Source of the DNA: Escherichia coli
GTDB lineage: Bacteria; Pseudomonadota; Gammaproteobacteria; Enterobacterales; Enterobacteriaceae
Length of the DNA stretch: 64,000 bases
Strand: one strand, 5' to 3'
NCBI RefSeq assembly: GCF_003790525.1
Contig: NZ_CP033635.1
This document shows positions 19,557 through 53,456 of this stretch, piece by piece (positions within the stretch are counted from its first letter, which is position 1; each line of letters opens with the position of its first letter). Below the pieces are notes generated by a model. That model saw nothing but the letters and a program-made list of their open reading frames with translations, was not told where the DNA came from and made no database searches. Position numbers and translations under genes: made by a program.

Positions 19557-19633
19557 CGACACTGCTCCTGAACGATAATTGCGTATATTCTGTAATTAAG
19601 ATAATTGCATATCTTCTGCAATTAAACAGAAAC

Positions 19634-19675
19634 ACCCTGCAGTCTATTGCTGCAGGGTTGTCTGTTATCTGTTTT
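19634..19675 (+). terminator. Rho-independent terminator downstream of the tia-like gene
   Basis: Perfect 9-bp stem accctgcag / ctgcagggt with a 7-nt loop, followed by a T-rich tract. Confidence 0.5.
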
Positions 19676-19737
19676 ACAGATAATTTCTGATTTTTATTAT
19701 CCTGTTCTCTTCATAATAATGTTGTCGATATACTCCG

Positions 19738-21240
19738 ATGAATATCAGAAAACTGTTTTGTCCGGGCGACACACCCCGGATTTTATTGTTTTTATTCTTT
19801 TTTGTTATTTCTGTGATAATCACAATTGCATGCGGATACACTGAGAAGAATGCCACAGGAAATGTGCTGCTTCTGTTTCTCCTTCTGCTCCTTGCACACA
19901 GAAATACCCTCACATCCATTACAACGCTGTTATTTCTGTTCTGTTGTGCACTGTATGCGCCTGCGGGTATGACGTACGGTAAAATCAACAACAGTTTTAT
20001 TGTCGCGTTGCTGCAGACCACGGCTGATGAGGCTGCAGAGTTTACCGGGATGATTCCTGTTTATCATTTTCTGGTCAGTGCCGCGATTCTGGTATTCATG
20101 GTGATTTTCTGGCGGACACACCACCGCGGTCACCGTAACTGGCTGGCACTGCTGCTGTTCGTATTATGCTCTGTAAACAGCTGGCCGTTGCGGATGGTTA
20201 AAGGAACTGTTGTGGGGACAACTGACACATTGCGTGAAATGCAACATTATAAACAACTGAGTCAGCACGGGGCTGACAACTGGAAAATCCTGCCGGGAAC
20301 ACCGTTATATGACACAATTGTTATTGTCACTGGTGAGAGTGTGCGCAGGGATTATATGTCGGTATATGGCTATCCCGTGCCAACCACGCCGTGGCTGAAT
20401 ACGGCTCCCGGTTTATTTATTGACGGCTATACATCGGCAGCAGCCAGTACCGTACCTTCCCTGAGCCGGACACTGATTTATGACTATGAGCAGAACCCTG
20501 ACTCCGGCAACAACGTGGTGGCGCTGGCAGCAAAAGCAGGATACAGCACATGGTGGATATCCAATCAGGGAAAGCTGGGGGAGCATGATACACGCATCTC
20601 TGTTATTGCTTCTGATGCGGAGCATACCGTTTTCCTCAAGAAAGGCAGCTTTGCTTCCCGTAAAACGGATGACATGTTGTTGTTACAGGAAACAGAACGT
20701 GCACTGGCGGATAAATCCTCTCCGAAGGTGATATTCCTGCACATGATTGGCTCTCATCCGAATCCGTGTGACCGACTTAACTCCTGGCCGAATCATTACC
20801 TGGAGCAGTATCCCCGAAAGGTTGCCTGTTACCTCGCCAGCATCAGTAAACTGGATAACTTTCTCGGTCAGCTTGATGGTATCCTTCGCCGGCATTCCCG
20901 TCATTTCGTCATGCTTTACTTTTCTGACCATGGGCTGTCGGTCAGCGACAGTGCTAATCCTGTTCATCATGATGGTCATGTGCAGGGAGGCTACAGCGTT
21001 CCCCTGATTATTACCGCCAGTGATATCACGTCTCATCAGTCCGTCAGCAGAAAAATCAGTGCCCGTCATTTCGCAGGTATTTTTCAGTGGCTGACCGGCA
21101 TTCGTACTGAAAATATACCGCCATTCAATCCGCTGACAGACGAAGATAATGAACCCGTTATGGTTTTTAACGGAGAGAGGAATGTACTGGCAGACAGTCT
21201 GAAACCACAGCCTCTGATTCTTCCGGTCAAGGGAAAATAA
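19738..21240 (+). CDS. Sulfatase-superfamily phosphoethanolamine transferase (EptA/YhbX-like membrane protein)
   Basis: 500 aa; hydrophobic N-terminal domain with several TM helices followed by a periplasmic sulfatase-like domain (VIVTGESVRRDYMSVYGY..., HMIGSHPNP..., LYFSDHG). Start codon is uncertain. Confidence 0.65.
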   Translation: MNIRKLFCPGDTPRILLFLFFFVISVIITIACGYTEKNATGNVLLLFLLLLLAHRNTLTSITTLLFLFCCALYAPAGMTYGKINNSFIVALLQTTADEAAEFTGMIPVYHFLVSAAILVFMVIFWRTHHRGHRNWLALLLFVLCSVNSWPLRMVKGTVVGTTDTLREMQHYKQLSQHGADNWKILPGTPLYDTIVIVTGESVRRDYMSVYGYPVPTTPWLNTAPGLFIDGYTSAAASTVPSLSRTLIYDYEQNPDSGNNVVALAAKAGYSTWWISNQGKLGEHDTRISVIASDAEHTVFLKKGSFASRKTDDMLLLQETERALADKSSPKVIFLHMIGSHPNPCDRLNSWPNHYLEQYPRKVACYLASISKLDNFLGQLDGILRRHSRHFVMLYFSDHGLSVSDSANPVHHDGHVQGGYSVPLIITASDITSHQSVSRKISARHFAGIFQWLTGIRTENIPPFNPLTDEDNEPVMVFNGERNVLADSLKPQPLILPVKGK

Positions 21241-21598
21241 GCGTAATGTTCATCACCAGATTATGTACGATGAGTTTTCCACTGTTTATAGCAATTATCT
21301 TGCTAATAACCAGACAGGAGTAACCAGACCAACCGAAAACACCGGGGAGGTGATTACCCGCTGGCAGAGGAAATCCGGTTTTTTTGATGTCAGCCATAAC
21401 GTGTTTGACAATAAAGCATTATGAAAGGGTGTTAATGAGTCCATGGGATAATTCATAAAAATAATTTACTGTGTTATCCTTTTCAAAAGAAATATTCAGA
21501 AGATAACCCCTGGCTGACAACCAGGGAAAGGGGACATTAACAGTATTATTATTGGTGGATAAATTATTACTTGTGTGCAGGATACACTAATGCAATAT

Positions 21599-22642
21599 CT
21601 ACTGATACTGTATGCCAGAATGTTTCCTGCCTGCTGCTGAAAACGGCAATATCCAGGGCCAGACATATTCACCATTCATATTTCTGCATTTCTGTACAAT
21701 TTTCTCAGAAAGCGTCTCATCAATTCTTTCACGCAACTTCTCCTGCTGTCTTAAAATACTTTCGTATATTTCGAAATCATCTTCCTGCATCAGCATTTCG
21801 GCGCATTTAATGATTTCTGCCCGTTCATGCAGCACAGAGGAATGGTTATAGAGCCAGTTTACAAACAGCAATGCTTCCGGATATTGTCCCCATAATGGTG
21901 AGTATGTTGTATAATAATCTTCGGCAGTATCCGGCCCTGCAGAATAGTTATGCCATACAGCAAGAGGAAATGGATGCAGATTTCCGCACAGCATTTCCGC
22001 GATGTAAGTATTTGCCGCAAATCCGCGACGAAATGCAGTTGCAGCTTTTACCAGTTCCCCATTAAGAAAATGCAGAAGACCAAGTTCATACCAGTAAGGT
22101 GAAAATTCATCAGCATGTTTTTTCAGTACACTGAAGGCTCGCTCATGATCACCTGTTCGTAACAGTTCTGAACCCAACAACCAGCGGGCACCCTGATTAT
22201 CTTCAGGATTGTATGCCAGTATTTTATCAGTAAGCATAACCGCATCCTGATGACGCTGTAAGTGCACATTTGCGAGAATTGCTGCATAAAGCGCGCGCAG
22301 ATAAGGCCGGTTTTCGGGATGCATCCAGATGATTTCACCACTGAAACTTTCCGGGATGAGACGATTACCGGCCGCCAGTCCTTTAAGCGCGGCGTTCAGA
22401 GCCTTACGCGGGGCATTCTGCTCCAGAAATGCATATGCCAGATGAGCGTGTATATCAATAAAGTCAGGCTCCCGTTGAGCAAGATGCCTGAGTTTGTTGA
22501 TGTAACTCGTCTCGCTGATTTCATCAGTGTCGTATGCATCAAGCACTTCTTCAAACTCCCCCAGTAATGGGCCAAACCAGGTATCCGGAAATACGAAATA
22601 ACCCTTGTTATCGTGCACTTCAAAGCATAATCTATCGTTCAT
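21599..22642 (-). CDS. Hypothetical protein, predicted helical-repeat (TPR-like) fold, no signal peptide
   Basis: 347-aa ORF with no family recognised by eye. Lies between the integrase and the PEtN transferase and is flanked by AT-rich intergenic DNA. Confidence 0.5.
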   Translation of the reverse strand: MNDRLCFEVHDNKGYFVFPDTWFGPLLGEFEEVLDAYDTDEISETSYINKLRHLAQREPDFIDIHAHLAYAFLEQNAPRKALNAALKGLAAGNRLIPESFSGEIIWMHPENRPYLRALYAAILANVHLQRHQDAVMLTDKILAYNPEDNQGARWLLGSELLRTGDHERAFSVLKKHADEFSPYWYELGLLHFLNGELVKAATAFRRGFAANTYIAEMLCGNLHPFPLAVWHNYSAGPDTAEDYYTTYSPLWGQYPEALLFVNWLYNHSSVLHERAEIIKCAEMLMQEDDFEIYESILRQQEKLRERIDETLSEKIVQKCRNMNGEYVWPWILPFSAAGRKHSGIQYQ

Positions 22643-52859: not shown

Positions 52860-53456
52860 TTACTGCAACTGTGCAGCAATTAGCGGCCAGCGGGCGTCAA
52901 AGTCATCCGTCGGGCGGTATTTAAACTCGCTGCGGACAAAGCGTGACAGCATACCTTCACAGAAGGCCAGGATCTGGCTTGCCAGCAGGGTTTCATCCGT
53001 CGCGTAGCCTTCGCCCTCACGCATTCTCTTTTCACGCAATACCTGACGCAACTGCGCTTCAATACGCTCGAATAGCTGGTTGATGCGCCCTTGCAGGCGA
53101 TCCTGTTCAAACATTAGTGCATGACCAGTGAGGATGCGGGTCAGGCCAGGATTACGCTCACCAAAACCGAGAAGCAGCAACACAATCAGACGCAGGCGCG
53201 CTGTGGTGTCTTTCTCATCTTTCAGAATCAGATTGATGCGAGTAATCAGGCTATCTTCGATAAACTCAATCAGGCTATCGAACATGCGGGTCTTACTGGG
53301 GAAGTGGCGATACAGTGCCGCTTCGGAAACGCCGACAGAGGCGGCCAGTTTTGCCGTCGTGATACGTTGGCTTCCATCGCTGGATTCCAGCATCAGCGCC
53401 AGAGACTGAAGTATTTCCTCGCGACGGTTCCTTTTCGCAGTTTGTTTTTCTGCCAT
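52860..53456 (-). CDS. slmA: Nucleoid occlusion factor SlmA (TetR family)
   Basis: Start chosen at [24 protein letters not shown] (198 aa). Confidence 0.9.

What the first reader, a model, noticed from the sequence alone, without database searches (positions are those of the whole stretch)
19574..19625. Two adjacent imperfect 26-bp direct repeats with internal dyad symmetry between the tia-like gene and the PEtN transferase gene
gataattgcgtatattctgtaattaa (19574..19599) is followed immediately by gataattgcatatcttctgcaattaa (19600..19625), 23 of 26 identical. The second unit contains a perfect 7-bp inverted repeat AATTGCA-N7-TGCAATT. The pair sits between the tia stop and its terminator hairpin (19634..19675), upstream of the downstream gene. 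It looks like a duplicated operator or an RNA structural element rather than random spacer.
Basis: seen in the sequence. Interest (0 to 1): 0.35.

Follow-up and report, generated by a model that had tools for sequence, protein, structure and literature searches.

The report
Old duplicated spacer hairpin after adhesin gene
The two adjacent 26-base repeats are real: an old tandem duplication of a weak, AT-rich hairpin-forming segment in the trailer of an E. coli adhesin gene. One copy is missing in about a quarter of related strains, and nothing indicates a regulatory site, so it is most likely ordinary spacer variation.

Summary
Window 19574-19599 and 19600-19625 are head-to-tail 26-bp copies, 23/26 identical, and unique in the window. 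Each copy carries an internal dyad: 8 perfect pairs in unit 2, and 8 pairs with two G·T in unit 1.

The pair lies in the 181-bp spacer between a Hra/Tia-family outer-membrane adhesin gene and a phosphoethanolamine (PEtN) transferase gene, just upstream of a strong intrinsic terminator. The module sits in a selC island found in 1543 of 5426 complete E. coli genomes.

- **Age:** the duplication predates the divergence of the alleles, because unit-1 and unit-2 signature bases are shared across lineages, including the true tia locus.
- **Dispensability:** unit 1 was lost at least twice. About 23% of loci have one unit, always of the unit-2 type.
- **Context:** two other short tandem duplications in the same spacer (7 bp and 8 bp) also vary in copy number.
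- **Constraint:** the hairpins are weak (-2.4 to -6.4 kcal/mol), covariation is not significant, and the arms vary three times more than the terminator stem.
- **Other copies:** none elsewhere in E. coli, plasmids or phages, and no Rfam match.

Best reading: a slippage-type duplication in the adhesin mRNA's 3' trailer, nearly neutral. An operator role is unsupported, and a minor RNA role is not excluded. Interest is low.

The parts
18816..19556 (+). Hra/Tia-family outer-membrane adhesin gene (246 aa). The repeats lie in its 3' trailer.
   Evidence: ORF. It is 64% identical to an annotated Tia protein. RefSeq calls it 'outer membrane protein'.
19557..19573 (+). Stop-proximal 17 nt (CGACACTGCTCCTGAAC), well conserved among alleles.
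   Evidence: Alignments. Mean pairwise difference 0.124.
19574..19599 (+). Unit 1 of the 26-bp tandem repeat. Dyad TAATTGCG-N7-TGTAATTA has two G·T oppositions. This is the optional copy, lost in one-unit alleles.
   Evidence: RNA hairpin -3.7 kcal/mol on the + strand only. Absent from E20-type and D/E-type alleles.
19600..19625 (+). Unit 2 of the 26-bp tandem repeat. Perfect 8-bp dyad TAATTGCA-N7-TGCAATTA. A unit of this type is present in every allele seen.
   Evidence: I13. Hairpin -6.4 kcal/mol. Part of the RNAalifold consensus. Retained in all 114 loci.
19634..19676 (+). Intrinsic terminator of the adhesin gene: stem ACCCTGCAG/CTGCAGGGT (19634-19658) plus a T-rich tail.
   Evidence: Terminator scan. 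Fold z = -6.7. Stem nearly invariant, pairwise difference 0.037 against 0.287 for its loop. All nine stem pairs kept in the alifold consensus.
19657..19670 (+). Second short tandem duplication, GTTGTCT GTTATCT (7 bp x 2). One copy in B- and tia-type alleles.
   Evidence: Alignments.
19665..19683 (+). Small perfect hairpin TTATCTGT-TTT-ACAGATAA that overlaps the predicted -35.
   Evidence: (I15).
19673..19700 (+). Sigma-70-like promoter candidate for the PEtN transferase gene (TTTACA-16-TATTAT, 10/12). Its -10 is removed by an 8-bp indel (about 19694-19701) in D-type alleles.
   Evidence: and the alignment. This is a consensus match only.
19738..21240 (+). Phosphoethanolamine transferase gene (500 aa, YhbX/CptA-like).
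   Evidence: It is 94-100% nt identical between alleles whose adhesin genes are only 50-70% identical.

Best explanation
The feature is an ancient head-to-tail duplication of a 26-bp AT-rich quasi-palindromic segment. It lies in the 3' untranslated trailer of a Hra/Tia-family adhesin gene, between the stop codon and the gene's intrinsic terminator.

- **Origin (inferred):** the kind of event that makes short tandem duplications, such as replication slippage or unequal exchange. The same 181-bp spacer shows two other such duplications.
- **Transcription (inferred from position):** the units are transcribed as the tail of the adhesin mRNA. Each can form only a weak AU-rich stem-loop.
- **Function:** the second copy is dispensable and the pair evolves about as fast as the surrounding spacer. 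Its effect on either flanking gene is probably nil or small, at most a minor contribution of the always-retained unit-2 hairpin to the shape of the mRNA 3' end.
- **What it is not:** an operator, or a copy of a mobile or dispersed repeat family.
For: **Shown**
- The tandem repeat is real and unique.
- It lies between the stop codon and a strongly folding, strongly conserved terminator.
- The locus is present in 1543/5426 complete E. coli genomes.
- Two-unit alleles occur in all major lineages, including the true tia locus. Unit-1 copies share A at unit position 14 (ATATT) and unit-2 copies share C (ATCTT), so the duplication predates allele divergence.
- Unit 1 was lost at least twice. One loss is an exact 26-bp deletion (E20 type; 13 genomes at >=99% identity plus 3 at 95-99%). 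The other is a 22-bp deletion that converts the L073-type two-unit allele exactly into the D type (279 genomes at >=99% identity, 57 more at 90-99%).
- Among 114 loci collected, 82 have two units and 32 have one.
- The same spacer has a 7-bp and an 8-bp tandem duplication that also vary in copy number.
- Pairing statistics do not differ significantly from shuffled controls, the hairpins are weak, and arm diversity is 0.123 against 0.037 for the terminator stem.
- There is no other copy in the window, in E. coli genomes outside this locus, or in plasmids or phages. No Rfam family reaches its threshold.

**Inferred**
- The slippage mechanism, transcription as a 3' UTR, and near-neutrality.
Against: - Every major allele lineage keeps at least one intact 7-8-bp dyad, and both deletions spared the unit-2 copy.
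- One stem pair shows G-C, A-T and G·T states (AU 9, GC 4, GU 1, other 3), the pattern expected of an RNA stem.
- The 3' half of the unit-2 loop (CTTCTG) is invariant in nine diverged alleles.
- The two-unit state has persisted through up to about 25% spacer divergence with only two losses.

These points hint at weak constraint on one hairpin. They rest on few independent events.
Confidence: 0.55

Rival explanations
1. Functional RNA element. The unit-2 hairpin, duplicated in most alleles, would be a selected part of the adhesin mRNA 3' UTR. It could be a stability or decay determinant, a landing site for an RNA chaperone (Hfq or ProQ), or the body of a 3'-UTR-derived small RNA that ends at the terminator.
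For: - The hairpin is in the RNAalifold consensus of nine alleles, with one compensated pair (AU 5, GC 3).
- Unit 1 pairs only as + strand RNA through G·U.
- A unit-2-type hairpin is present in all 114 loci.
- The loop 3' half, CTTCTG, is invariant.
- The layout (AU-rich hairpins followed by a strong terminator with a U-rich tail) resembles 3'-UTR-derived sRNAs. This comparison is from general knowledge and was not tested.
Against: - The covariation term is only -0.17 kcal/mol and the shuffles are not exceeded.
- Stems are only -2.4 to -3.7 kcal/mol in most alleles.
- The tia unit 2 has lost the stem without compensation (A·C and U·C oppositions).
- Arms are no better conserved than flanking spacer.
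- No Rfam match and no expression data.
Confidence: 0.2
2. DNA-level protein binding. The palindromes would be operators or nucleoid-protein (for example H-NS) nucleation sites that control the PEtN transferase promoter just downstream, or silence the island.
For: - The dyad symmetry is kept across alleles, with a symmetric G-C to A-T change.
- The spacer is AT-rich (35% GC against 50% for the window) and lies in a horizontally acquired selC island.
- A promoter-like site sits 48-100 nt downstream.
- The unit start CGATAATT loosely resembles the published H-NS high-affinity motif. This is from memory and was not tested.
Against: - The units lie upstream of a terminator, not at a promoter.
- Half-site centres are about 16 bp apart, about 1.5 helical turns, and the units repeat every 26 bp, about 2.5 turns. 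Both spacings are unfavourable for cooperative same-face binding (inference).
- No regulator gene is part of the conserved module.
- The motif occurs nowhere else in the window or in E. coli genomes, so no regulon exists.
- Copy number is free to vary, and individual units decay.
Confidence: 0.12
3. Attenuator or antiterminator. The units would offer an alternative pairing that competes with the terminator and tunes read-through from the adhesin gene into the PEtN transferase gene.
For: - The two genes are co-oriented and always linked.
- No convincing Shine-Dalgarno sequence or conserved promoter precedes the PEtN gene.
- In the window allele, unit arms can pair with each other in two registers.
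Against: - The only complementarity between the units and the terminator arms is the 5-nt CUGCA/UGCAG, which is lost in D/E alleles that carry CUGUA.
- The terminator stem is far more stable than any alternative.
- No conserved alternative fold appears in the alignment fold.
Confidence: 0.05

Closest known systems
Short intergenic tandem duplications (VNTR-like indels made by slippage or unequal exchange)
   Same: Head-to-tail copies, a unit of tens of bp, and copy number that differs between strains (1 or 2). Neighbouring 7-bp and 8-bp duplications behave the same way.
   Different: Only one or two copies were seen, never a longer array. The duplication is old and fairly stable, with only two losses across all lineages sampled.
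REP/BIME palindromic elements in E. coli 3' UTRs
   Same: A palindromic unit in the transcribed trailer between a stop codon and a terminator. In principle it could shape the mRNA 3' end.
   Different: REP elements are GC-rich and occur in hundreds of copies per genome (general knowledge). This unit is about 75% AT, folds weakly, and exists only at this locus.
3'-UTR-derived Hfq/ProQ-dependent small RNAs (for example CpxQ, SroC, RaiZ)
   Same: AU-rich hairpins directly upstream of a strong terminator at the end of an envelope-protein mRNA.
   Different: There is no evidence of processing, of a stable RNA, of a seed, or of targets. No Rfam hit.
Palindromic repressor operators
   Same: 7-8-bp inverted half-sites, present twice.
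   Different: The site is not at a promoter, no cognate regulator lies nearby, no other sites exist in the genome, and units decay or are deleted in natural alleles.

Membership tests
Tandem duplication / copy-number-variable short repeat | Head-to-tail copies of one unit | tested here: met
   TRF gives period 26, 2.0 copies, 88% matches, score 83. Start-to-start spacing is 26.
Tandem duplication / copy-number-variable short repeat | Copy number differs among otherwise homologous loci | tested here: met
   Of 114 loci, 82 have two units and 32 have one. In complete genomes, about 1151 are two-unit and about 350 are one-unit.
REP/BIME or other dispersed repeat (ERIC, MITE, IS end) | Many copies dispersed in the genome | tested here: not met
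   The unit is found only at this locus in E. coli genomes, median one place per genome. There are no extra copies in the window and none in plasmids or phages beyond this locus.
REP/BIME or other dispersed repeat (ERIC, MITE, IS end) | GC-rich, stable imperfect palindrome (REP) | tested here: not met
   Units are about 75% AT (sequence). Hairpins are -2.4 to -6.4 kcal/mol.
Curated RNA family (Rfam 15) | Score at or above the family gathering threshold | tested here: not met
   The best hits (rli40 at 26.7 bits against 100; STnc310 at 19.5 against 40) fall far below threshold and centre on the terminator.
Structured RNA element (selected stem-loop) | Base pairs maintained by compensatory change beyond chance | tested here: inconclusive
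   One pair has GC, AU and GU states. Overall, 45/500 shuffles reach the observed pairing and 71/500 reach the covariation score. The alifold covariation term is -0.17.
Intrinsic terminator | GC-rich stem followed by a U tract | tested here: not met
   The units themselves lack both features. The adjacent hairpin at 19634-19658 has them.
Palindromic operator | Inverted half-sites | tested here: met
   TAATTRC-N9-GYAATTA is present in both units.
Palindromic operator | Overlaps or abuts the regulated promoter | tested here: not met
   The nearest promoter-like site starts at 19673, beyond the terminator. No promoter-like site lies in or next to the units.
Palindromic operator | Specific binding by a regulator | not testable with these tools
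   Needs EMSA or pull-down. No regulator gene belongs to the conserved module.

The most novel reading that the evidence does not exclude
The always-retained unit-2 hairpin, with its invariant CUUCUG loop half, together with the terminator could form a 3'-UTR-derived small RNA or a chaperone-binding module of the adhesin mRNA. That would couple expression of a hypervariable Hra/Tia-family adhesin to other envelope functions, possibly the linked PEtN transferase. The duplication would then double the dose or change the fold.
Probability: 0.1. Interest if true: 0.4.

Novelty: new member of a known kind. Interest (0 to 1): 0.12.

Why it matters
It matters little by itself. The repeat is a convenient allele marker (0, 22 or 26 bp deleted) for the tia/hra–PEtN transferase module of selC islands, which about 28% of complete E. 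coli genomes carry. If the retained hairpin did affect adhesin mRNA fate, it would be a small addition to 3'-UTR-based control of virulence adhesins. The surrounding observations seem more worth pursuing than the repeat: a hypervariable adhesin gene fused to a nearly invariant PEtN transferase gene, and a conserved GATC cluster upstream of the adhesin.

Tried and rejected
- **Dispersed repeat or mobile-element end.** Rejected. BLAST of the 67-nt region finds only this locus in E. coli genomes, plasmids and phages. The Enterococcus hits are short AT-rich chance matches.
- **Known RNA family.** Rejected.
- **Other copies of the dyad in the window.** None. One 2-mismatch chance hit at 52860, against 0.86 expected.
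- **GATAATTG as a shared motif** (three of the window's four copies are in this locus, including one between the adhesin's Shine-Dalgarno sequence and its ATG). Rejected. The copy at the ribosome-binding site is GATGATTG in the tia, ESY002 and Hek-like alleles.
- **Fur, PmrA/BasR, PhoP, CpxR, TyrR, IHF and Fis consensus sites.** Compared by eye from memory. No convincing match in spacing or sequence. This was not a formal test.
- **Small ORF in the repeats.** Stops in all frames and no plausible peptide (sequence).
- **Antiterminator pairing with the terminator arms.** Only 5 nt of complementarity, and not conserved.
- **Hek/Hra1-type and more distant homologues.** These loci (L115, L116 and other genera) have unrelated downstream sequence, so the repeat is specific to the adhesin–PEtN transferase module.
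- **Literature.** Searches for a described element downstream of tia/hra2/hek found nothing. The 1996 tia paper is not held.

Full report
**Observation**

Window 19574-19599 (GATAATTGCGTATATTCTGTAATTAA) is followed directly by 19600-19625 (GATAATTGCATATCTTCTGCAATTAA), with 23 of 26 bases identical. Tandem Repeats Finder reports period 26, 2.0 copies and score 83, the strongest array in the 64-kb window. A degenerate unit pattern with up to three mismatches matches only these two places, and none of 100 shuffles gives any match.

Unit 2 holds a perfect 8-bp inverted repeat, TAATTGCA-N7-TGCAATTA (I13). This is one match in the window against 0.02 expected. Unit 1 has the same dyad with two G·T oppositions. 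It therefore folds only as + strand RNA, at -3.7 kcal/mol against 0.0 for the - strand. The description is correct.

**Setting**

The repeats lie in a 181-bp, 35%-GC spacer. Upstream is a 246-aa outer-membrane protein gene (18816-19556) that is 64% identical to an annotated Tia protein. Downstream is a 500-aa phosphoethanolamine transferase gene (19738-21240).

- Seventeen nucleotides separate the stop codon from unit 1.
- Eight nucleotides after unit 2 begins a hairpin (19634-19658) with a T-rich tail. The scan calls it terminator-like. With its flanks it folds at -28.2 kcal/mol, z = -6.7.
- A second small hairpin (19665-19683) and a sigma-70-like site (19673-19700, 10/12) follow.

The module lies in an island next to tRNA-Sec (selC), with a P4-type integrase and a TPR protein gene. 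This is the same kind of site reported for tia-type islands and for PEtN-transferase-bearing selC insertions (PMC5539235, PMC6174562).

**Related loci**

The 501-bp region around the repeat is present in 1543 of 5426 complete E. coli genomes, at 83-100% identity. I read seven alleles from those genomes. A further 105 metagenome stretches were found with a conserved 30-nt pattern at the gene's end. In total 114 loci give 20 distinct versions of the repeat region.

- **Two units (82 loci).** These include the window type (A), a B type whose unit 1 is 25 nt, the true tia locus (C), and a rare D2 type (L073).
- **One unit (32 loci).** One kind is an exact 26-bp deletion in an A-type background (E20 type). 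The other is GATAATAATTAC…GTAATTAA (D/E types), which equals the L073 allele minus 22 nt.

In complete genomes the two-unit query covers at least 80% in 1151 genomes. The E20-type junction is found at >=99% identity in 13 genomes, with 3 more at 95-99%. The D/E type is found at 90% or more in 336. About 23% of loci therefore have one unit.

All unit-1 copies share A at unit position 14 and all unit-2 copies share C. Every single-unit allele is of the unit-2 type. From this I conclude three things:
- There was one old duplication, predating allele divergence.
- There were at least two later losses.
- Both losses removed unit 1.

**Is it constrained?**

- *Hairpin strength.* Energies across alleles run from -2.4 to -6.4 kcal/mol. 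B-type unit 1 does not fold at all, and tia-type unit 2 has lost the stem.
- *Pair counts.* On 17 distinct units, 87.4% of cells pair, against 85.1% in column shuffles, and 45/500 shuffles do as well. The covariation score of 0.141 is reached by 71/500 shuffles. Only pair 8-20 shows compensated change (AU 9, GC 4, GU 1, unpaired 3).
- *Consensus fold.* RNAalifold on nine diverged trailers predicts the unit-2 hairpin and the terminator, with a covariation term of -0.17 kcal/mol.
- *Diversity by segment.*

| Segment | Mean pairwise difference |
|---|---|
| Terminator stem | 0.037 |
| Unit-2 arms | 0.123 |
| Stop-proximal 17 nt | 0.124 |
| Unit 1 | 0.128 |
| Tail after terminator | 0.150 |
| Unit-2 loop | 0.204 |
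| Terminator loop | 0.287 |
| Linker (unit 2 to terminator) | 0.296 |

The terminator stem is clearly under selection. The unit arms are not distinguishable from ordinary spacer.

The spacer also contains a 7-bp tandem duplication (19657-19670) and an 8-bp one (about 19694-19701). Each is present in one or two copies depending on the allele. The segment is therefore generally prone to short duplications and deletions.

Some points argue for weak constraint:
- Every major lineage keeps at least one intact dyad.
- The unit-2 copy is never lost.
- The loop's 3' half, CTTCTG, is invariant in the nine alleles.

These rest on few independent events.

**Other copies and known families**

- The unit is not found outside this locus in E. 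coli genomes (median one place per genome).
- In plasmids and phages it is found only as the same locus. The remaining plasmid and phage hits are short Enterococcus chance matches.
- No Rfam family comes near its threshold.
- Hek-like and more distant homologues of the adhesin have unrelated downstream DNA.
- Searches of the held literature found no description of the element.

**Interpretation**

The best-supported account is a slippage-type tandem duplication inside the adhesin gene's 3' trailer. It would be transcribed up to the terminator and be nearly neutral (confidence about 0.55). The mechanism and the transcription are inferred, not shown.

- A selected RNA role for the retained hairpin (stability element, chaperone site or 3'-UTR-derived sRNA) remains possible (about 0.2).
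- An operator or nucleoid-protein site is unlikely (about 0.12). The units sit upstream of a terminator rather than at a promoter. The half-site and unit spacings are 1.5 and 2.5 helical turns. No regulator is linked. The motif has no other genomic copies.
- An attenuator role is very unlikely (about 0.05).

**Verdict**

This is a real feature and an undescribed one, but of an ordinary kind. Interest is low.

Noticed in passing
window 18699-18740: A cluster of three GATC (Dam) sites sits in a tandem/palindromic element (gacGATCgatatcatcGATCgattcGATCgatttt) about 75-115 bp upstream of the adhesin start. The core CGATCGATTCGATCGA is conserved upstream of the tia, ESY002-type and Hek-like genes, although the rest of the upstream region is only about 55-60% identical. 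It is absent in SBF22. This resembles the GATC clusters of Dam-dependent phase-variable adhesins such as agn43 and pap.
   Followed up: partly
window 18816-21240, compared with L005, L006, L114: The module is a mosaic. The adhesin gene is 50-70% nt identical between the window and tia alleles, while the adjacent PEtN transferase gene is 94-100% identical, with the switch inside the spacer near 19700. A hypervariable adhesin is always linked to a nearly invariant PEtN transferase, which suggests a functional link between the two.
   Followed up: partly
window 19657-19670 and about 19694-19701: Two further short tandem duplications (7 bp GTTGTCT/GTTATCT, and 8 bp TTATTATC-like) vary between one and two copies among alleles. 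The 8-bp deletion in D-type alleles removes the predicted -10 (TATTAT) of the PEtN transferase promoter candidate.
   Followed up: partly
window 19684-19697 with 19738-19751: TTTCTGATTTTTAT is 86% complementary to ATGAATATCAGAAA, which spans the PEtN transferase start codon. No clear Shine-Dalgarno sequence precedes the ATG. The leader may occlude the start codon.
   Followed up: no
L020, L047, L092 (metagenome contigs), just after the second hairpin: In three tia-type loci the spacer breaks off at GTTTCACAG|TAAGCGTACAGCC…, and unrelated DNA replaces the PEtN transferase start. This is an insertion or a rearrangement.
   Followed up: no
L007 21894-23122 (strain TUM9803) versus window ~21200-21300: The otherwise 100%-identical genome TUM9803 carries an IS3-family insertion at the 3' end of the PEtN transferase gene (annotated product ends at locus position 21805). 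The window has the intact 500-aa gene, so the window is not from that assembly or predates the insertion.
   Followed up: no
L113 and L114 (genome contigs): Near-identical E. coli adhesin and PEtN transferase sequence appears in assemblies labelled Paenibacillus tengchongensis (a 540-bp contig, 99% identical) and 'Bacteroidetes bacterium' MAG. This is most likely contamination or mis-binning.
   Followed up: no
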